Positions 3,403 to 59,670 of a stretch of 64,000 nucleotides of DNA are shown in pieces. The notes under the pieces were generated by a model. That model saw nothing but the letters and a program-made list of their open reading frames with translations, did not search any database and was not told the origin of the DNA. The DNA comes from a virus: IMG/VR virus record IMGVR_UViG_3300009093_000034, positions 30,632-94,631 of that record; one strand, given 5' to 3'. The translations under genes were made by a program, and so were the position numbers. Within the stretch, counting starts at the first letter, position 1, and each line of letters opens with the position of its first letter.

Positions 3403-3424
3403 TCAATCGTTAGTCTGATGTTAA

Positions 3425-3458
3425 AACCTCCACCCTAGGGTGGAGGTTTTCTTTTTTC
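3425..3458 (+). terminator. rho-independent terminator
   Basis: CCTCCACCC-TA-GGGTGGAGG hairpin followed by TTTTCTTTTTT. Confidence 0.75.
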
Positions 3459-3487: not shown

Positions 3488-5479
3488 ATGGGACAACTTC
3501 AGAGATTTAGAGAATCCTTCACCATGCAACAAGGTCAATTCGAAAGAATTCCTTTGACCGAAGCTCTCCAAGAAAAGTATCACATTCCTGAGACCGTCAA
3601 GAGACTTACTGAATCTACCAAATATCAAGAGGCTACGACTAGACTTGTTGAAAAGGCTTTCAAAGACCTTGAGGAATCAGGTACTTCAGTAGAACTTATC
3701 TCTAGATTACGAGAAGCTCTAAAAGTAACACTTCCTGAAAACAGGAACCTTTACAAGTTTCCAGTCTCAAAGTACGACAACCTAAACATCAACAAGCGCC
3801 GATACCCAAAGAAACTTTGGGAAAGAGTTATTCATGATCAAGAAGATCGTTGGAAAGGACTCTCAGGTCTTGCTGACCACCCATCTGACGATTCTGATGG
3901 AGAGTTCAAGAACTCATCTATCGTTTGGTTGGACATGGAGATCGACCCAAAAACTAACCTAGTTTGGGGTGTGGGTGTTTTTGTTGGTCCTTACGGAAGA
4001 CTTGCACAAGAGATCATTGACGTTGGTGGACGTGTTGGATTCAGCTCTTCAGGTTTTGGAGAGCTTGGTTATGACGGTGAGACCGTTGATCCAGAGTCCT
4101 ACATCATCGAGCGTGTTGCAGACCTAGTTCTAAACCCTTCTCAAGGTGTTTATGGTGCTTCTGACAACAACTTGAATGTAGAGTACTCGTCTCAGAAACC
4201 TGTTAAAGAAAATTCTACTAATTCTCTAGAAACCCTTTCTCGGGTGGAGGAAAAACACCGAATGTCTGAACAAACTAAACCTGCTATTAGCAAGATCGAG
4301 GAGAAGAAGTTCCGAAGAGACGTTGAGTCTCTCTTGAACGACGCTTCTAAGTTAGCCGACCCTCAGGTTCGTCTTGTAGAACTCACAGAGATCCTCGACG
4401 CCTTTGAGGAAGGAATTGCTCCTGATCTTAGAGAAAAGGTTGAGACCGAGATCTTAGCTGAGAAGCTCAAGATCGAGACCATGCTTCGTGAAACAAGCGA
4501 GACCCTTTCCGCTTTTGGAGCTACTAGCCCTGATGCTATCAAGGCCGGAGTTGCTCTTCTTGCCGAAGAGGTTAACCTAGTCGCTGCTGAGGCAAAAGAC
4601 TGGGAGAAGATCGCTATTGCCCTAAGAGACAGCAACAAGTCTCTTAAGGAAGAGAACCAGAAGCTCTCTGCAGAGCTTTCTATCCGTCCTTCTGTTGATG
4701 CTTTCGGAAAACTCACTGAGAAGGTCAAGGTTCTTGAAGAACAAAAGCACAAGTTCGCTACTAAGTATCTTCAGGAAGCTGAAGAAGAGAACGAAACATC
4801 AGAAGAGATGGAAAAGAAGATGGAGTCTCTTAACAATGAGATCTCTGGTCTTAAGTCCAAGATTCTTGAGTTCGTCTCCCAAGAGAAGAAGTTCGCTTCT
4901 GCTCATGCTGCCGAGATCACCGAGTCCAAGAAAGAAGTTGAGTCAGCTAAGAAGTTGGCCGAGGAATCTAAGCTTGCTCTAGAAGAAGCCGAGACCACCA
5001 TCGACCTTCAGGAACAACAGATCACCAGACTTCAGAACAGTCTCAAGGAAACTAGAGTCGCTGCTCAGAAGCTTGAGGAAGAATACGTAAACTTCCAGAA
5101 TCAAGTTAAGCTTGAGAGTGCACCTCCTAAGATCGTTCCTCGCTTTGAGGAGAGAGTCAATGGACTCTTGAACTTCAGAGAGAACAACGGTGTTGAAGTT
5201 GAAGCTCTTTGGCAGACCTTGACCGATCGTCACGGTTCTGCTATTAAGCCTTTTGAGAAGAACATCAGAGGAGCCAAGACCATCAGAGAGGCTACCTCAG
5301 CTTACTACCGAGCACTTCCTGAGTTTGAAGAGAACAACATCGCTCTTCACGAAGCTGAACTTCCAGATTCTACCTCTGTTACCAGACAAGAAAGAGTTGA
5401 GATGTTCGAGCGCCAAGGTGTTAAGTTTGGTGGAAAGACCTTGATCGACAGAGTCCTTGAGAGAAAGGGCTACCAGTAA
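3488..5479 (+). CDS. coiled-coil scaffold-like protein (possible prohead protease-scaffold fusion)
   Basis: 663 aa. The C-terminal ~400 aa are heptad-rich and Glu/Lys-rich, resembling phage scaffolding proteins. A globular N-terminal domain carries the GFSSSGFG motif. The gene is positioned just before the capsid gene. Confidence 0.5.
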   Translation: MGQLQRFRESFTMQQGQFERIPLTEALQEKYHIPETVKRLTESTKYQEATTRLVEKAFKDLEESGTSVELISRLREALKVTLPENRNLYKFPVSKYDNLNINKRRYPKKLWERVIHDQEDRWKGLSGLADHPSDDSDGEFKNSSIVWLDMEIDPKTNLVWGVGVFVGPYGRLAQEIIDVGGRVGFSSSGFGELGYDGETVDPESYIIERVADLVLNPSQGVYGASDNNLNVEYSSQKPVKENSTNSLETLSRVEEKHRMSEQTKPAISKIEEKKFRRDVESLLNDASKLADPQVRLVELTEILDAFEEGIAPDLREKVETEILAEKLKIETMLRETSETLSAFGATSPDAIKAGVALLAEEVNLVAAEAKDWEKIAIALRDSNKSLKEENQKLSAELSIRPSVDAFGKLTEKVKVLEEQKHKFATKYLQEAEEENETSEEMEKKMESLNNEISGLKSKILEFVSQEKKFASAHAAEITESKKEVESAKKLAEESKLALEEAETTIDLQEQQITRLQNSLKETRVAAQKLEEEYVNFQNQVKLESAPPKIVPRFEERVNGLLNFRENNGVEVEALWQTLTDRHGSAIKPFEKNIRGAKTIREATSAYYRALPEFEENNIALHEAELPDSTSVTRQERVEMFERQGVKFGGKTLIDRVLERKGYQ

Positions 5480-5510: not shown

Positions 5511-5541
5511 GAGCCTTCTCGTAAGAGAAGGCTTTTTTTTT
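5511..5541 (+). terminator. rho-independent terminator
   Basis: GCCTTCTC-GTAA-GAGAAGGC hairpin followed by a T9 run. Confidence 0.75.
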
Positions 5542-9094: not shown

Positions 9095-9120
9095 TCTAGA
9101 CTAGATTCTTAAGTCAAGAA

Positions 9121-9150
9121 AAACCCTCTCGAAAGAGAGGGTTTTTTATT
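9121..9150 (+). terminator. rho-independent terminator after capsid gene
   Basis: ACCCTCTC-GAAA-GAGAGGGT hairpin followed by TTTTTTATTTT. Confidence 0.8.
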
Positions 9151-12331: not shown

Positions 12332-12350
12332 GAACTTTCAGTTTTGTTAA

Positions 12351-12380
12351 AGATCCTCCCGAAAGGGAGGATTTTTTATT
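12351..12380 (+). terminator. rho-independent terminator
   Basis: ATCCTCCC-GAAA-GGGAGGAT hairpin followed by TTTTTTATT. Confidence 0.8.
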
Positions 12381-12398
12381 GTCTTCTAGATATACTAC

Positions 12399-12413
12399 TG
12401 AGATATTGTAGCC
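12399..12413 (+). promoter_or_regulatory. conserved promoter-like motif TGAGATATTGTAGCC (copy 2)
   Basis: The motif ends 6 nt before the ATG at 12417, implying a leaderless or near-leaderless transcript. Confidence 0.55.
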
Positions 12414-12416
12414 ATC

Positions 12417-12641
12417 ATGGATGAACTTACTTGGGAACAGGTGAAAGACGGTAAGCACGAAGAGTGGAACGCCGTCCAGAAAGATCACGTTCAGGCTTAC
12501 ATCAAGAGACTCTCTGCTTTTCGTCTCGATGTGAAGTTTCGGAACCCGACCATTGAGGACTTTGAGTTCCTCGGTTCTTTGGGAGAAGCTAAGTCTTTGA
12601 CCCGAGAAGAACTGGCTAAGGTCGAACCCATCTCAAAGTAG
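12417..12641 (+). CDS. hypothetical protein (GC-rich cassette)
   Basis: 74 aa, with codon usage resembling the other motif-driven genes. Confidence 0.45.
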   Translation: MDELTWEQVKDGKHEEWNAVQKDHVQAYIKRLSAFRLDVKFRNPTIEDFEFLGSLGEAKSLTREELAKVEPISK

Positions 12642-17035: not shown

Positions 17036-17269
17036 ATGAGCTGTTTAGTTTGTGGCCAAAATGCGTTTGATAGGATTGACATCACTATCCCTGGAGTTCC
17101 CAGAGTATATTTGAAATCCTCTAGAGGAGAAGTTGATCTTTCATTTTGCACGATCTGCGGAACTGTCAAAGCTGACGTGCCCTTCCCATCTACAACTAGA
17201 GCTGCTTTGTTAGAAGATAGATATAAAAAGATCTTAGAAAGAAACAGTGGTTTGTCCACAGATCCTTGA
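17036..17269 (+). CDS. zinc-ribbon protein
   Basis: CLVCGQ...CTICG Cys pairs. Confidence 0.4.
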   Translation: MSCLVCGQNAFDRIDITIPGVPRVYLKSSRGEVDLSFCTICGTVKADVPFPSTTRAALLEDRYKKILERNSGLSTDP

Positions 17270-24491: not shown

Positions 24492-24959
24492 TTGTACATG
24501 AGAAGAACCTATAGAATAGAAAAGTCTTTAGATATTGAGGAGTTCATTAGAATAACTAATGAATCGTTAACCATGAAACAAGCTGCTGTGAAACTTGGTC
24601 TTCATTTTAATAGTTTCAGAAGAATAGCAGTAAAGTATGGAGTTTATCGACCTAATCGTGGAGGCAAAGGAACCCATAAGCATAAAGAAAATGGGACTAC
24701 ACCTCTTACTGAAATTTTGGAAGGAAACCATCCATCATATCAAACGTTTAGATTAAAACTTAGATTAATTTCAGAAGGAATTTTTATTCCAGAATGTTCT
24801 GAATGCAAAAATACTCAATGGAATAAAAAAGAAATTCCTTTAGAGTTAGATCACATAGATGGAAATTCTTCTAACCATCTTTTAGACAACTTACGATTGT
24901 TATGTCCAAATTGTCATGCACAAACTGAGACGTATAGAGGAAAAAACAAAAAGTTTTGA
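24492..24959 (+). CDS. HNH homing endonuclease with N-terminal HTH
   Basis: CSECKN...LDHIDGNSSNHLLDNLRLLCPNCH is an HNH motif. Its AT-rich codon usage is distinct from the flanks. Confidence 0.7.
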   Translation: MYMRRTYRIEKSLDIEEFIRITNESLTMKQAAVKLGLHFNSFRRIAVKYGVYRPNRGGKGTHKHKENGTTPLTEILEGNHPSYQTFRLKLRLISEGIFIPECSECKNTQWNKKEIPLELDHIDGNSSNHLLDNLRLLCPNCHAQTETYRGKNKKF

Positions 24960-24969
24960 GATATTACTC
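24954..24969 (+). promoter_or_regulatory. promoter-like motif variant TTTTGAGATATTACTC (copy 4) upstream of tRNA
   Basis: Variant of the TGAGATATTGTAG family, ending about 10 nt before the tRNA 5' end. Confidence 0.45.
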
Positions 24970-24979
24970 AAGCAAGTGA

Positions 24980-25090
24980 GCGGGAGTGGAGAAATGGTGA
25001 GACTCAGCGGACTTATGAATGCATTCTAACTAGTGCATTGAATAAATCCGCTGCTTAAGAGGCGTGCCGGTTCGAGTCCGGTCTCCCGCA
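24980..25090 (+). tRNA. tRNA-like gene (111 nt) with long variable arm and apparent 28-nt insertion in the anticodon loop; candidate anticodon UAU
   Basis: 7-bp acceptor GCGGGAG/CTCCCGC with discriminator A. U8, A14, GG and A21 are present in the D-arm. The T-arm is GCCGG-TTCGAGT-CCGGT. The anticodon stem GCGGA/UCCGC encloses 35 nt instead of 7. The variable arm is GCTT-AAG-AGGC. Confidence 0.55.
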
Positions 25091-25138
25091 GAAGTTGGAC
25101 CGTAGAGTTCAACGATTTCCCAAAGAGGAGGATAACCA

Positions 25139-25591
25139 ATGAGTTATCTCACTGCTACTACTCAGGACATTCAGGACGTCGCTAAGACCCTGATTTATGC
25201 CACTGACAAGACCACGTCCCGCGACATTCTGGAGAAGATGCGCGCCGACAATTACTGGATCAACCAGACCGAGGTCGCTGCTGCGCTTCGTGATCTTCTG
25301 GCCACGGATCCTTCCTACGTTCGGACCTTTCAGCCCGATGCCTCGGTTCCTACCGGTGGCTACTTCATCTACGGCCTTGCGAGCGTGATCAAGACCACGG
25401 CCTCTGCCCCTGTCTACCCTGCGAAGGTGAAGAAGGTTCAGACTGTTGGTGACTACGAAGCTCGTGACAAGAACGATCCCAACTGGACCCTCGTTCGTTA
25501 CGACAACGTCACCGAGAACCAGGCCAAGCATCTCTTCTCCGAAGAGTACGGCGTCGCCTACACTGACGTTCGCGTCAAGAAGGCTGTCTAA
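25139..25591 (+). CDS. hypothetical protein (GC-rich island)
   Basis: 150 aa with a strong RBS AGAGGAGG. Its GC-rich codon usage differs from the phage backbone. Confidence 0.5.
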   Translation: MSYLTATTQDIQDVAKTLIYATDKTTSRDILEKMRADNYWINQTEVAAALRDLLATDPSYVRTFQPDASVPTGGYFIYGLASVIKTTASAPVYPAKVKKVQTVGDYEARDKNDPNWTLVRYDNVTENQAKHLFSEEYGVAYTDVRVKKAV

Positions 25592-25619
25592 GAAAAAAGT
25601 TTCTCTTGAAAAGAGAGGC

Positions 25620-25634
25620 TGAGATATTGTATAC
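25620..25634 (+). promoter_or_regulatory. conserved promoter-like motif TGAGATATTGTATAC (copy 5)
   Basis: No ORF follows it. A terminator lies 150 nt downstream. Confidence 0.5.
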
Positions 25635-25800
25635 GTAATGACCTAGAGCTTGAGCATAGGTTAAGCCAAACGGTAAAGTAAAGGCCGCCAAATAGCAAAA
25701 GGGAGGGTTTCTATCTTCTAAAGATCTAAACCACTATATTTTGTTTTTTTAATAGATTGTTTTTCGAAAAGGGAACCTGTTGGTTCCCTTTTCCTTTTTG
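25635..25800 (+). ncRNA. candidate small non-coding RNA (promoter-to-terminator unit without ORF)
   Basis: Bounded by motif copy 5 and the strong terminator at 25767-25800. The only ORF inside is ATG-ACC-TAG. Confidence 0.35.
25767..25800 (+). terminator. rho-independent terminator
   Basis: GGGAACC-TGTT-GGTTCCC hairpin followed by TTTTCCTTTTT. Confidence 0.8.
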
Positions 25801-25809
25801 TGAAGAGAA

Positions 25810-25824
25810 TGAGATATTGTAGAC
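25810..25824 (+). promoter_or_regulatory. conserved promoter-like motif TGAGATATTGTAGAC (copy 6) upstream of PARP-like gene
   Basis: 26 nt upstream of the ATG at 25850. Confidence 0.55.
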
Positions 25825-25849
25825 AACTTATAGTTCATGGAGACTACAG

Positions 25850-27061
25850 ATGGCCCGTATTGAAAAGCTGATCATGGTGACCGGTGAAGAGAATCACAAC
25901 AAGGTCTATGAGCTGATCGACAACGAGAACGGTACTTGTACCGCCAAGTGGGGTCGGGTTGGCGCTGCTCTTCAGGAGTGCAACTACCCCATCAGCGAGT
26001 TTGAAAAGAAGCTCAAGGAAAAGGTCAAGAAGGGCTATCGCGTGATCACCGATCTTCTGTCTGTCGAGAAAAGTGATGGTAAGACCACCACTACGGACGA
26101 CGAAGAGGTAAAGATCCAGAACATGTCCCGTGAGGCCATGGAGTTGATCAACTTCCTCCAGAGTTGTGCTAAGGGCATCGTCAAGCAGAACTACACCGTC
26201 AAAGTTGCCGACGTTACTCAGAAGCAGATCGACGCTGCTCAGGCCATCCTGGACGGACTGGTTGCTCTGTCCAACCAGAACTGGTCTCGTGAAGAGGCCA
26301 ACAAGATCCTTTTGGATCTTTACAACACCATCCCCCGGAAGATGAGCAACACCAAGAACTTCCTCATCCAGATCGACAACATCACGAAGAAGCGCCTTCA
26401 GGAGTTGATCTCCAGTGAAGCCGATCTTCTTGACGTTATGCGCGGTCAGGTTCAGACCACGAACGTTGCTCCCAAGTCTTCCACTGGCGAAGTCAAGTTG
26501 GATATTGAGATTCGTCTCGCTACTCCCGATGAGATCGATGAGATCTCCAAGAAGACTGACTTTGATGTTCGTAGTGCTGCAAGGATCTATCGGGTGGAGA
26601 ACACCAAGACCAAGAATCGCTACGAAAGTATCAACAAGCAGAATGAACAGCTTCTCTACCACGGTTCTCGCAGCCAGAACTGGTGGTCGATCATCAACGG
26701 CGGTTTGAAGATTCGTCCGACCAACGCCGTTCACACTGGCTCGATGTTCTCCGATGGTATCTACGCTGCTGACAAAGCTCAGAAGTCTCTCGGTTACACC
26801 GACGGTGGTTATTGGACTGGTAGCAGTGGTTCCTCGAAGAGGTTCCTCGGCATCTACAGTTTCAACCTCGGTCGTCAGTGGGATCTGTTCGCTGGTGGTC
26901 AGCGTCATGCCAGCTGGATGATGCAGCTCAACCTGAAGAAGATCAACGACAAGGGTTTTGACTCTCTGTTCGCTAAGGGTGGAGCAGATCTTCGCAACAA
27001 TGAGATGATCGTGTTCGAAGAGGCTCGCTGCACCATCAAGTATCTGATCGAGATGCGTTAA
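25850..27061 (+). CDS. PARP-like ADP-ribosyltransferase (WGR domain + helical domain + ART catalytic domain)
   Basis: The N-terminal WGRVG is a WGR motif. The C-terminal LYHGSRSQNWWSIINGG, GIYAADKAQKS and NEMIVFEEARCTIKYLIE blocks supply the H-Y-E triad of PARP catalytic domains. Confidence 0.75.
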   Translation: MARIEKLIMVTGEENHNKVYELIDNENGTCTAKWGRVGAALQECNYPISEFEKKLKEKVKKGYRVITDLLSVEKSDGKTTTTDDEEVKIQNMSREAMELINFLQSCAKGIVKQNYTVKVADVTQKQIDAAQAILDGLVALSNQNWSREEANKILLDLYNTIPRKMSNTKNFLIQIDNITKKRLQELISSEADLLDVMRGQVQTTNVAPKSSTGEVKLDIEIRLATPDEIDEISKKTDFDVRSAARIYRVENTKTKNRYESINKQNEQLLYHGSRSQNWWSIINGGLKIRPTNAVHTGSMFSDGIYAADKAQKSLGYTDGGYWTGSSGSSKRFLGIYSFNLGRQWDLFAGGQRHASWMMQLNLKKINDKGFDSLFAKGGADLRNNEMIVFEEARCTIKYLIEMR

Positions 27062-28183: not shown

Positions 28184-28516
28184 ATGAGTCTTTTTCTTTC
28201 AGACAGTCGATCATCTTTTGATGAAAATTCTCCTGTCCAAGCCAACACCTACTCTCCCCGCCTTGGAAAGAAACTTAGCGGAAAGGTTCATGTTGGAAAC
28301 CTGGAGATTGACAACAGCGATTTTTGCGAGTTGGTCCTTTACTTTTTGACCAACACAGACCTTGATCCTGAACATGATTCCAGAGAGTCTCTTTTGAAGA
28401 CTCTCAAAGAGTTGAATATCACGGAACACGGCTACAATCAGGGCTATCGAAGGATCATCTGGAACCCAACCAACGATCCTAACGCCGGTAAATGGGTCGA
28501 CAACGAGAACCAGTAG
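28184..28516 (+). CDS. hypothetical protein
   Basis: 110 aa. Confidence 0.4.
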   Translation: MSLFLSDSRSSFDENSPVQANTYSPRLGKKLSGKVHVGNLEIDNSDFCELVLYFLTNTDLDPEHDSRESLLKTLKELNITEHGYNQGYRRIIWNPTNDPNAGKWVDNENQ

Positions 28517-28522
28517 TATACT

Positions 28523-29095
28523 ATGACCATGGAATTTTACGAAGCAAACTACCAAATCCAGATGGACCCAGTGTTCCTAGAGAACATCAAATGGGGAAAG
28601 CCCAGGTCTGGTCACGATGAAGGAACCATTCACGCTCACATCGACGAACTTTGTCGAAACCTTGAGAAAGTAGAGAAGATCTCTGATCTGGAGAAGAACA
28701 AGCTTCTCTTCATGATCCTTGTTCACGACACTTTTAAGAAGGATGCCACTCCGGACTCTGCGATTGAGGATCCTAACTCTCATGCCTCTTTGGCTGTCCA
28801 GTACGCCAAGAAGTTCACAGATGACAAGGATGTTTTGACGATCCTTCAGTACCACGATCTGAACTTCTCTTTGTCCAAGTCTTTCCAGAAGACAGGCTCC
28901 TACAACGTAGGAAGGCTCTACAACCTTATTGGAAAGTTAACAGATGATGGAGTCAAGCTTCTTATCATCTTCACCTACATTGATGGGTGGACCAAAGGTA
29001 AGGACCATAGCAAACTTCCTTGGTTCAAGGATGAGATCCTGAACAAGAGGGCCATTCACTGGTCAGAACAATGGATCGAACAATTTAAGGACTAA
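28523..29095 (+). CDS. possible HD-domain hydrolase
   Basis: The order H...HD...H...HD...D (GHDEGTIHAHIDEL, ILVHDTFK, ILQYHD) suggests an HD domain. The assignment is weak. Confidence 0.4.
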   Translation: MTMEFYEANYQIQMDPVFLENIKWGKPRSGHDEGTIHAHIDELCRNLEKVEKISDLEKNKLLFMILVHDTFKKDATPDSAIEDPNSHASLAVQYAKKFTDDKDVLTILQYHDLNFSLSKSFQKTGSYNVGRLYNLIGKLTDDGVKLLIIFTYIDGWTKGKDHSKLPWFKDEILNKRAIHWSEQWIEQFKD

Positions 29096-57587: not shown

Positions 57588-57817
57588 AAAAAGAAAAGCC
57601 TTTATATCGAATCCTAGAAAAACACAGTAAGTTCTACCCTCAATGGCGAGGGTGGTTTTTCTGGAATTATTTTGAAGCAGATCCTGACACCGGAGAAGTT
57701 AAAGTTTGGAAAGAAACTTTAACTGCTGCCAAGCAGTACATCAAGTTCCACATTCAAGCTGTAAAAGAAGTTGAAGAAATGTGGAACCCTAAGATCGTGA
57801 TCCATAGTTTTGAATAG
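57584..57817 (+). CDS. hypothetical protein
   Basis: 77 aa. Confidence 0.4.
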   Translation: MKKEKPLYRILEKHSKFYPQWRGWFFWNYFEADPDTGEVKVWKETLTAAKQYIKFHIQAVKEVEEMWNPKIVIHSFE

Positions 57818-58553: not shown

Positions 58554-58919
58554 ATAAAGGGAACTCTGTTTCAGCGTAACAACCGAAGTTAGCGCCGACA
58601 AAATGAGATGATGCGAAAGGCCTTGGGGAGCACAAGGTACCAACGAGTAGCTACCATCTCACGTACTGTCTCTCATGCCCCTGAGAGAACTTCCGTTTTA
58701 AGAAGCGACCACGAATTGCTTCCCAGGTTGCGGAAGAACAAATAGTTCCCGAGCAAAGTAGTGTAACGGTTTCGCACGACCAGTGTCTACTGGTTAGTTC
58801 TAGGATCATCCCCTAGACTTTGCTATTGCTCTTGAATTCCACGTAAAGGAGGTTAACCATTCACATGAATTCCAAGGACAACTTTCACACTTCACACATC
58901 ATAAGGTCTTCTCACGAAA

Positions 58920-59594: not shown

Positions 59595-59638
59595 CCAGAA
59601 ACGATCTTGCGTTAAAGCAAGGGATCTGAGTCCCAAAG

Positions 59639-59670
59639 AAAAAGCCCTCTTTCGAGGGCTTTTTTATTTT
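59639..59670. terminator. bidirectional rho-independent terminator
   Basis: AGCCCTC-TTTC-GAGGGCT is flanked by A-run and T-run. It serves the + sigma gene and the - RHH gene. Confidence 0.75.

What the first reader, a model, noticed from the sequence alone, without database searches (positions are those of the whole stretch)
25592..25849. Orphan promoter-terminator unit: candidate ~170-nt small RNA between the GC-rich 150-aa gene and the PARP-like gene
Motif copy 5 (25620-25634) is followed by ~135 nt with no ORF beyond a 2-codon ATG-ACC-TAG. The unit ends at a strong intrinsic terminator (GGGAACC-TGTT-GGTTCCC + T-run, 25767-25800). Motif copy 6 follows immediately and drives the PARP-like gene. 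A promoter and terminator bracketing a non-coding segment is the classical signature of an sRNA gene. Alternatively it is a duplicated regulatory leader.
Basis: seen in the sequence. Interest (0 to 1): 0.6.

Follow-up and report, generated by a model that had tools for sequence, protein, structure and literature searches.

The report
Orphan promoter-terminator unit in jumbo phage
An uncultured 306-kb phage has a promoter-like motif, about 130 bases with no gene, and a strong terminator just upstream of its PARP-like gene, so it probably makes a roughly 163-nt non-coding RNA; such units are already known from jumbo-phage transcriptomes, and nothing here shows a function.

Summary
TGAGATATTGTA sits at 25620 and 25810. 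A 12-bp hairpin plus T-run (25766-25799, -19 kcal/mol) lies between the two copies. The 252-nt stretch is the largest ORF-free gap in the 64-kb window.

The core TGAGATATT fits an extended -10 promoter (TGn + GATATT). It occurs 7 times on the + strand and never on the - strand (0.86 expected), always just upstream of a gene, once upstream of a tRNA. A discrete RNA of about 163 nt is therefore a reasonable prediction.

Nothing beyond the bracket supports a functional sRNA:
- There is no Rfam match.
- The body folds no better than shuffled sequence (z = -0.47).
- No homologue was found in any collection searched.
- No target stands out.

The same terminator also ends the upstream tRNA plus winged-helix-gene operon. 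The P5 and P6 promoter copies share a 21-nt repeat.

The empty-cassette and 5'-leader readings remain open. One distant phage (L010) shows the same layout: orphan promoter-terminator units between homologues of the same two genes, without sequence similarity.

Verdict: plausible but unproven; a new member of a known kind; modest interest.

The parts
24957..24965 (+). Promoter-like core TGAGATATT upstream of the tRNA. It starts the upstream operon that reads into the unit.
   Evidence: the tRNA 5' end is 15 nt downstream
24980..25090 (+). tRNA gene with a long variable arm and about 28 extra nt that extend the anticodon arm (context; same transcription unit as the 150-aa gene)
   Evidence: Rfam tRNA 42 bits, E 2.5e-7; ARAGORN with introns allowed; fold z = -4.1
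25139..25591 (+). 150-aa gene. The predicted N-terminal domain is a winged helix. Homologues are linked to PARP-like or NAD genes in three other phage contigs.
25598..25620 (+). Hairpin AGUUUCUCUUGAAAAGAGAGGCU directly after the stop codon and abutting P5. It has no U-tract.
   Evidence: -9.2 kcal/mol
25620..25631 (+). P5: promoter-like motif TGAGATATTGTA (TG at 25620-25621, -10 hexamer GATATT at 25623-25628). The inferred start is near 25635.
   Evidence: the start site is inferred from standard -10 to +1 spacing
25635..25765 (+). Non-coding body, 35% GC. It holds a 5' hairpin, an SD-like AAAGGGAGGG with no start codon after it, a GGGUUU...AAACC hairpin, and two tandem U-rich 16-mers (25736-25767).
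25766..25799 (+). Intrinsic terminator: 12-bp stem, UGUU loop, U4CCU5 tail
25810..25821 (+). P6: second copy of the motif, 28 nt upstream of the PARP-like start codon (GGAG at 25839-25842)
25850..27061 (+). PARP-like gene with WGR and PARP catalytic domains (context)
   Evidence: Pfam PF00644 E 4.5e-22, WGR weak; phrog_23333 E 6.9e-49

Best explanation
This is a short, self-contained non-coding transcription unit.

How it most likely works:
- Host RNA polymerase, with a sigma-70-family factor, recognises the extended -10 element TGAGATATT (P5) and starts near 25635.
- It stops at the intrinsic terminator at 25766-25799, giving a non-coding RNA of about 163 nt.
- The same terminator also ends the upstream tRNA plus winged-helix-gene operon, so the RNA overlaps that operon's 3' UTR. 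This is the layout of 3'-UTR sRNAs that have their own promoter.
- Any read-through continues into the PARP-like gene, which also has its own promoter (P6).

Because it carries the same promoter as the tRNA, the winged-helix gene and the PARP-like gene, the RNA should appear at the same time as they do. Its most likely role is a small phage RNA with a U-rich 3' region and a terminator hairpin, acting in trans, probably on host rather than phage transcripts.

Shown here: the motif, its enrichment and placement, the terminator, and the absence of coding capacity. Inferred: that P5 fires, the transcript ends, and any function.
For: - TGAGATATT occurs 7 times on the + strand and never on the - strand, against 0.86 expected.
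- All 7 copies are intergenic. Six sit 6-45 nt before a start codon or about 15 nt before the tRNA; the seventh is P5 itself.
- The core fits TGn + a -10 hexamer and keeps A-11 and T-7 (read from the sequence).
- P5 is an exact 12/12 copy.
- The terminator is as strong as the phage's best ones, -19.1 kcal/mol. It lies 175 nt from the stop codon, against 18-47 nt for the other six.
- This is the largest ORF-free gap in a window that is 95% ORF-covered.
- There is no ORF in the standard code or with TAG or TGA read through.
- Units in which a start site is followed closely by a termination site, with no CDS, are documented in jumbo-phage transcriptomes. Phage 201phi2-1 has 11 sRNAs, 3 intergenic and 8 from premature termination in 5' UTRs (PMC11512511). 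PA5oct has 4 ncRNAs (PMC7318152).
- In L010, the only other phage found with the same gene order, two promoter-motif copies followed by ORF-free stretches ending in a hairpin and T-run lie between the homologous genes.
Against: - No Rfam family matches the body, even at E up to 10.
- The body's MFE is ordinary, z = -0.47. The z of -2.5 for the whole unit comes from the terminator.
- No homologue was found in the window, in fetched loci, in IMG/VR, in GenBank phages or in GTDB genomes. Conservation and covariation therefore cannot be tested.
- No significant similarity exists to the L010 spacer; 25 of 500 shuffles score as well.
- The best duplex with 92 translation-initiation regions is reached by 11 of 40 shuffled RNAs.
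- P5 has no -35 element.
- The terminator is needed anyway for the upstream operon.
- There are no expression data.
Confidence: 0.4

Rival explanations
1. Empty regulatory cassette or rearrangement scar. The phage separates transcription units with terminator-promoter composites, like the PeSL elements of T4-type phages. Recombination or local duplication between such elements, or loss of a small gene, left a promoter copy and about 130 nt of spacer in front of the terminator that really belongs to the tRNA plus 150-aa operon. Any RNA made is a by-product with no selected function.
For: - Terminator followed by the motif also occurs at 12349-12376 / 12399.
- P5 and P6 share a 21-nt direct repeat, 86% identical, and their upstream flanks are the joint-best pair among the 8 copies.
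- The order of the two flanking genes differs between phages: PARP then partner in L006, partner then PARP here and in L010, and no PARP nearby in L012. The locus has therefore been rearranged.
- The body contains an SD-like AAAGGGAGGG with no start codon, as a decayed small gene would leave.
- The body shows no structure signal and no homologue.
- PeSL composites with A3-4G3-loop-C3T3-4 stems are described in PMC4122927.
Against: - The window is 95% ORF-covered, so useless DNA seems to be purged.
- P5 is an intact 12/12 copy.
- The flank similarity between P5 and P6 is tied by an unrelated pair, 44105/56257.
- No recognisable gene remnant is present.
Confidence: 0.3
2. Cis-acting 5' leader of the PARP-like gene. 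Transcripts from P5 mostly stop at the terminator (premature termination), and regulated read-through adds to PARP expression from P6. This would resemble the 5'-UTR-derived short RNAs of phage 201phi2-1, a riboswitch or attenuator, or lambda PR'-tR'.
For: - The position is directly upstream of the PARP-like gene.
- 8 of 11 short RNAs in 201phi2-1 arise by premature termination in a 5' UTR.
- Body segment 25689-25704 is 14/16 complementary to the terminator's 3' arm plus U-tract, 25785-25800.
- L010 has the same arrangement upstream of its PARP gene.
Against: - PARP has its own promoter copy after the terminator, so read-through is not needed.
- No known riboswitch or leader family matches.
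- No sequence pairs convincingly with the terminator's 5' arm. The 14/16 pairing is A-run against T-run, at the level of other chance inverted repeats in the same 600 nt.
- PARP homologues in L003, L004 and L006 have no such leader.
Confidence: 0.12
3. The motif is not a promoter. It would be, for example, an RNA-processing or protein-binding site, and the interval is simply a long 3' UTR of the 150-aa gene that ends at its terminator.
For: - No -35 element accompanies most copies.
- The 150-aa protein has a winged-helix fold and could bind DNA repeats.
- No transcript data exist.
Against: - The motif fits the extended -10 consensus.
- All copies are placed where promoters are expected, including after terminators and before a tRNA.
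- Two copies also have TTGACT or TTGATA at 17-18 nt upstream.
Confidence: 0.1
4. A hidden micro-protein or minigene. Candidates are the two-codon ATG-ACC-TAG at the predicted 5' end (compare the lambda bar minigenes) or a short peptide with a non-canonical start.
For: ATG lies at 25639, 4 nt from the inferred start. An SD-like AAAGGGAGGG lies at 25698-25707.
Against: - No SD precedes the ATG.
- After the SD-like run the only candidate frame is ATC-TTC-TAA.
- All + frames are closed within 30 codons and lack start codons.
- Minus-strand ORFs of 29-38 aa lack an SD and run against all neighbouring genes.
Confidence: 0.03

Closest known systems
Short CDS-free transcription units (start site followed closely by a termination site) found in jumbo-phage transcriptomes: the 201phi2-1 sRNAs (PMC11512511) and the PA5oct ncRNAs (PMC7318152)
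   Same: A jumbo phage; a promoter followed within 250 nt by a terminator; no CDS; located between genes or upstream of a gene; function unknown; one such unit lies near a tRNA in 201phi2-1.
   Different: Those were defined by RNA sequencing, and this one only by sequence. There is no sequence relationship. The promoter type also differs: here it looks like a host extended -10, whereas phiKZ-like phages use their own polymerases.
3'-UTR-embedded sRNAs with their own promoter that share the terminator of the upstream mRNA (type I, e.g. DapZ and MicL of enterobacteria; from general knowledge)
   Same: An internal promoter just after, or inside the end of, the upstream gene; a shared intrinsic terminator; a U-rich 3' region.
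   Different: In those cases the seed region is conserved, and Hfq dependence and targets have been shown. None of this is testable here. P5 lies after the stop codon, not inside the CDS.
PeSL composite terminator/promoter cassettes of T4-type phages (PMC2839356, PMC4122927)
   Same: A stem-loop with A-tract, G-run, loop, C-run and T-tract next to an early-type promoter, repeated at gene boundaries in a variable region. This offers a route to gene loss or gain that would leave an empty unit.
   Different: Only 2 of the 8 motif copies follow a strong terminator. No pair of closely related genomes is available to show indels at these sites.
Lambda PR'-tR' '6S' transcript (from general knowledge)
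   Same: A constitutive promoter, about 190 nt of non-coding RNA, and a strong terminator upstream of genes.
   Different: In lambda the downstream genes have no promoter of their own and depend on Q antitermination. Here P6 follows the terminator, and no Q-like factor or qut site was identified.

Membership tests
Intrinsic (Rho-independent) terminator | GC-rich stem, short loop, U-tract immediately 3' of the stem | tested here: met
   12-bp stem with a 7-bp GC-rich core, 4-nt loop, U4CCU5 tail; -19.1 kcal/mol
Sigma-70-type extended -10 promoter | TGn followed by a -10 hexamer with A at -11 and T at -7 | tested here: met
   TG-A-GATATT in all 7 copies
Sigma-70-type extended -10 promoter | Non-random, strand-specific placement upstream of genes | tested here: met
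   7 on +, 0 on -, against 0.86 expected; all intergenic, upstream of ORFs or a tRNA
Sigma-70-type extended -10 promoter | A primary transcript 5' end 6-8 nt downstream | not testable with these tools
   No transcript data are available; the host is unknown
Stand-alone bacterial or phage sRNA gene | Own promoter and terminator around a segment without coding capacity | tested here: met
Stand-alone bacterial or phage sRNA gene | Conservation of sequence or structure in relatives (covariation) | tested here: inconclusive
   No homologue was found anywhere searched. The nearest phages share only 35-56% aa identity in the flanking genes.
Stand-alone bacterial or phage sRNA gene | Thermodynamic structure beyond background | tested here: not met
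   Body z = -0.47; 61 of 200 shuffles fold at least as well
Stand-alone bacterial or phage sRNA gene | Identifiable complementary target | tested here: inconclusive
   The best duplex with 92 phage start regions is matched by 11 of 40 shuffles. Host targets could not be searched.
Any Rfam family (including riboswitches, tRNA, tmRNA, 6S, CsrB, T-box) | Covariance-model score at or near the gathering threshold | tested here: not met
   No match at the gathering threshold in the window. At E up to 10, only terminator-level hits of 18-20 bits against gathering scores of 44-56.
Riboswitch or transcription attenuator | An alternative antiterminator pairing with the 5' arm of the terminator | tested here: not met
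   No C-rich complement lies in the body. The only alternative pairing is to the 3' arm and U-tract (14/16, low complexity).
Riboswitch or transcription attenuator | The regulated gene depends on read-through | tested here: not met
   A second full promoter copy (P6) lies between the terminator and the PARP start
PeSL-type terminator/promoter cassette | A stem-loop plus early-promoter composite repeated at gene boundaries | tested here: met
   25766-25821 and 12349-12410; 2 of 8 motif copies
PeSL-type terminator/promoter cassette | Indels bounded by the cassettes between closely related genomes | not testable with these tools
   Only near-identical contigs of the same phage exist, and they are not shown separately
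Small-protein gene | An SD, a start codon and an open frame of at least about 10 codons | tested here: not met

The most novel reading that the evidence does not exclude
The RNA is a functional partner of the flanking winged-helix plus PARP-like (WGR + ADP-ribosyltransferase) module. Orphan promoter-terminator units sit between homologues of these two genes in two distant phages that appear to infect different phyla: the window phage uses Shine-Dalgarno sites, while L010 has Bacteroidetes-style signals. The 150-aa family is otherwise found next to PARP or NAD-salvage genes. The RNA could be a substrate, guide or regulator of the transferase, for instance attached to host proteins in the way T4 ModB attaches RNA chains (PMC10468400).
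Probability: 0.05. Interest if true: 0.8.

Novelty: new member of a known kind. Interest (0 to 1): 0.3.

Why it matters
If the RNA is made and functional, it would add a phage-encoded small RNA from an uncultured jumbo phage lineage, expressed together with a PARP-like ADP-ribosyltransferase module. Phage sRNAs are few, and their roles are mostly unknown. The practical value of this check is narrower:
- It defines the phage's promoter motif (TGAGATATT) and its terminator class, which helps annotate the whole 306-kb genome.
- It shows that the candidate rests on the promoter-terminator bracket alone.
- It flags a recurring, testable layout (non-coding units between the winged-helix gene and the PARP gene) in a second phage.

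Tried and rejected
- **Rfam.** Searched at the gathering threshold on the whole window and at E up to 10 on 24900-25900. Only the neighbouring tRNA and terminator-level noise appeared.
- **Homologues by DNA.** GenBank phages gave nothing. IMG/VR with two body patterns and the tRNA 3' half gave nothing. The double-motif pattern hit only repetitive giant-virus coding sequence. A GTDB genome scan with the central hairpin, run as a test of a CRISPR-repeat mimic, gave nothing. nhmmer and blastn against all loci and the rest of the window found only the shared promoter motif.
- **Homologues by synteny.** PARP relatives at 49-56% identity have no comparable spacer in L003 and L004. L006 has the two genes adjacent in the reverse order. 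The 150-aa family has only 4 members among 5.8 billion proteins. The metagenome scan returned only the L010 contig again.
- **L010 similarity.** The by-eye similarity (CAAATAGCAA..GGG) between the window body and L010 unit A is rejected. The local alignment score is reached by 25 of 500 shuffles, and the best alignment is a T-rich stretch.
- **Target search.** There is no stand-out target. A whole-window scan timed out. The 12-nt complementarity at 17210-17221 lies inside a small ORF and is at chance level.
- **Coding under alternative codes.** Rejected. TAG is rare as a stop (2 of 68), but there is no convincing sign of recoding.
- **Tandem repeats, ToxI-like arrays, retron-like repeats.** None found.
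- **NAD-cap idea.** The inferred +1 of P5 is G, unlike the A at most other copies (sequence), so there is no specific support.

Full report
**What the window is.** The window is part of a 305,853-bp metagenomic contig (ENA ERZ27252312, k141_4393686). It is phage-like: it has tail-related PHROG hits, and 95% of it is covered by ORFs, mostly on the + strand. No cultured or GenBank phage is close. The best PARP-like match is 36% aa identity, and the 150-aa protein has no match at all.

**Observation.**
The stop codon of the 150-aa gene is at 25589-25591.
- A 10-bp hairpin lies at 25598-25620 (-9.2 kcal/mol, no U-tract).
- TGAGATATTGTA (P5) lies at 25620-25631.
- About 131 nt follow with stops in all + frames and no start-codon-led frame beyond ATG-ACC-TAG.
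- The terminator GAAAAGGGAACC-UGUU-GGUUCCCUUUUC plus CUUUUUG lies at 25766-25799 (-19.1 kcal/mol).
- A second TGAGATATTGTA (P6) lies at 25810-25821, followed by GGAG and the PARP-like ATG at 25850.
- Reading TAG or TGA as sense opens no long + frame.
- The gap is the largest stretch in the window without an ORF of 40 aa or more (252 nt).

**Is the motif a promoter?**
- The 9-nt core TGAGATATT occurs 7 times, all on the + strand, against 0.86 expected; 0 of 100 shuffles reach 7.
- All copies are intergenic. Those other than P5 lie 6-45 nt before a start codon, usually with an SD between.
- One copy, at 24957, lies about 15 nt before the 5' end of a tRNA gene at 24980-25090 (Rfam 42 bits). That argues against a translational signal.
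- The core reads TG-n-GATATT, an extended -10 element that keeps the two key positions, A-11 and T-7. Two copies also have TTGACT or TTGATA at 17-18 nt upstream.
- I therefore accept it as a promoter, probably for host polymerase. This is an inference from sequence. The inferred start for P5 is near 25635.

**Is the terminator special?**
- Seven strong + strand terminators in the window share one design: A-tract, GC core, 4-6-nt loop and U-tract, at -12.5 to -19.4 kcal/mol.
- The other six lie 18-47 nt after a stop codon. This one lies 175 nt after the stop, with a promoter copy in between.
- The promoter at 24957 has no terminator before 25766. The tRNA plus 150-aa operon must therefore also end here, so the terminator alone does not define a separate gene. 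P5 is the only evidence for an independent unit.

**Does the RNA look functional?**
- No Rfam family matches the body. At E up to 10 there are only terminator-level hits.
- The 131-nt body folds no better than shuffles (z = -0.47). The whole unit's z of -2.5 is due to the terminator.
- There is no paralogue in the window and no homologue in any fetched locus, in IMG/VR, in GenBank phages or in GTDB genomes.
- The best predicted duplex with 92 phage start regions is matched by 11 of 40 shuffled RNAs.
- Features worth recording, none of which is evidence by itself:
  - an SD-like AAAGGGAGGG (25698-25707) with no start codon after it;
  - a GGGUUU...AAACC hairpin;
  - two tandem U-rich 16-mers just before the terminator;
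  - a 14/16 low-complexity complementarity between 25689-25704 and the terminator's 3' arm and U-tract.

**Context.**
- The 150-aa protein has only three relatives among 5.8 billion proteins.
- Its model (pLDDT 81.6) has an N-terminal winged helix. The top PDB matches are PadR, Fur, TFE and Z-alpha domains, with probability about 1 but weak E-values of 0.02-0.1.
- The relatives are always next to NAD-related genes:
  - In L006 the homologue lies directly downstream of PARP, in one operon.
  - In L010 it lies upstream of PARP.
  - In L012 it lies among NAD synthase, NMN adenylyltransferase-Nudix and isochorismatase genes, followed by a tRNA-like element.
- In L010 the two genes are separated by about 985 nt with no + strand ORF of 60 aa or more. 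That phage has its own promoter/leader motif, ATTGTTAGTAACTTTTT, found 5 times against 0.02 expected.
  - Three copies precede ORFs.
  - Two copies precede ORF-free stretches that end in a hairpin plus T-run. One is GC-rich and structured (z = -2.6); the other is about 90 nt.
- The layout 'partner gene, orphan promoter-terminator unit(s), promoter, PARP' therefore recurs once, in a phage with different expression signals. There is no sequence similarity, and the sample is two phages. PARP relatives in L003 and L004 have no such spacer.

**Explanations.**
- *Best (0.4).* P5 fires, and a non-coding RNA of about 163 nt ends at the shared terminator. It is a phage small RNA of the kind found by transcriptomics in jumbo phages. 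201phi2-1 has 11 short CDS-free units (PMC11512511), and PA5oct has 4 ncRNAs (PMC7318152).
- *Empty cassette or rearrangement scar (0.3).* Terminator-promoter composites recur here (also at 12349-12410) and resemble PeSL elements (PMC4122927). P5 and P6 share a 21-nt repeat at 86% identity. Gene order at this locus differs between phages.
- *Cis-acting leader with premature termination (0.12).* This is weakened by P6 lying after the terminator and by the lack of an antiterminator.
- *The motif is not a promoter (0.1).*
- *Micro-ORF (0.03).*

**Novelty and score.** If real, this is a new, unrelated member of a known kind: a phage small non-coding transcription unit, or a 3'-UTR-embedded sRNA with its own promoter. 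It is not surprising to a specialist, and it cannot be settled without transcript data or closer relatives. The most novel reading not excluded is an RNA partner of the winged-helix plus PARP-like module, for example in the manner of ModB RNAylation (PMC10468400). It rests on one positional parallel, and I give it about 5%.

Noticed in passing
window 24980-25090 (+): A tRNA gene that default ARAGORN misses. It has a long variable arm (type II) and about 28 extra nt that extend the anticodon arm into a long hairpin (Rfam tRNA 42 bits; fold z = -4.1). With introns allowed, ARAGORN calls Ile(UAU) with a 28-nt intron at 38/39; other intron placements would give Leu(UAA) or UUA. The insert is too short for a group I intron. 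It lies between an HNH endonuclease gene and the 150-aa gene and has its own copy of the promoter core at 24957.
   Followed up: partly
window 58752-58825 (+): ARAGORN calls a tRNA of unknown identity with a 6-nt anticodon loop (UGUCUA), reported as a 2-base anticodon. Both odd tRNA-like genes carry CUA in the apical loop. TAG ends only 2 of 68 long ORFs (35 TAA, 31 TGA). No clear sign of TAG recoding was found.
   Followed up: partly
window 28184-28516 and 28523-29095 (+): The 110-aa ORF ends in TAG and is followed in the same frame by the 190-aa ORF. TAG read-through would fuse them into 307 codons. This may be chance.
   Followed up: no
window 25139-25591 and 25850-27061: The 150-aa gene and the PARP-like gene are GC-rich islands (50-58% GC in 200-nt windows) in a 43.6% GC window, and the spacer between them is 35% GC. 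The two gene families are linked in other phage contigs (L006, L010), and the 150-aa family sits among NAD-salvage genes in L012. The 150-aa protein is predicted to have a winged-helix N-terminal domain.
   Followed up: partly
L010 4320-5304: About 985 nt without a + strand ORF of 60 aa or more lie between the 275-aa homologue and the PARP-like gene. The stretch holds three hairpin-plus-T-run sites and three copies of an approximately 85-nt conserved promoter/leader (ATTGTTAGTAACTTTTT...TAnnTTTG). Unit B (about 4675-5045) is 50% GC in a 35.5% GC locus, folds with z = -2.6 and matches no Rfam family at E up to 0.1. Unit A (4344-4589) gives only a weak CsrC-like hit (22 bits against a gathering score of 61). 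With TGA read as sense, a 128-codon open frame covers unit B.
   Followed up: partly
L012 5470-5580: A tRNA-like element (acceptor TGGAGTT/AACTCCA, T arm GAGGG-TTCGAAT-CCCTC) with an irregular interior lies directly downstream of the 142-aa homologue. The only Rfam signal is a weak tmRNA-clan hit (18 bits).
   Followed up: partly
window 3423-3450, 5511-5534, 9118-9147, 12349-12376, 25766-25793, 57634-57655, 59638-59665 (+): A family of strong + strand intrinsic terminators of one design (A-tract, GC core, 4-6-nt loop, U-tract), all intergenic. Together with the 8 motif copies they outline the transcription units of this part of the genome.
   Followed up: partly
window 12399-12419: The motif copy at 12399 is followed by an ATG only 6 nt after the 12-mer. 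The 74-aa ORF 12417-12641 would therefore be translated from a leaderless or nearly leaderless mRNA if the inferred start site is right.
   Followed up: no
window 24900-24952: The 3' end of the HNH endonuclease gene is the only part of the 2.2-kb query with DNA similarity to GenBank phages (87-91% over 44-53 nt, to Klebsiella jumbo phages Muenster and KP13-7). This suggests a mobile HNH gene.
   Followed up: no
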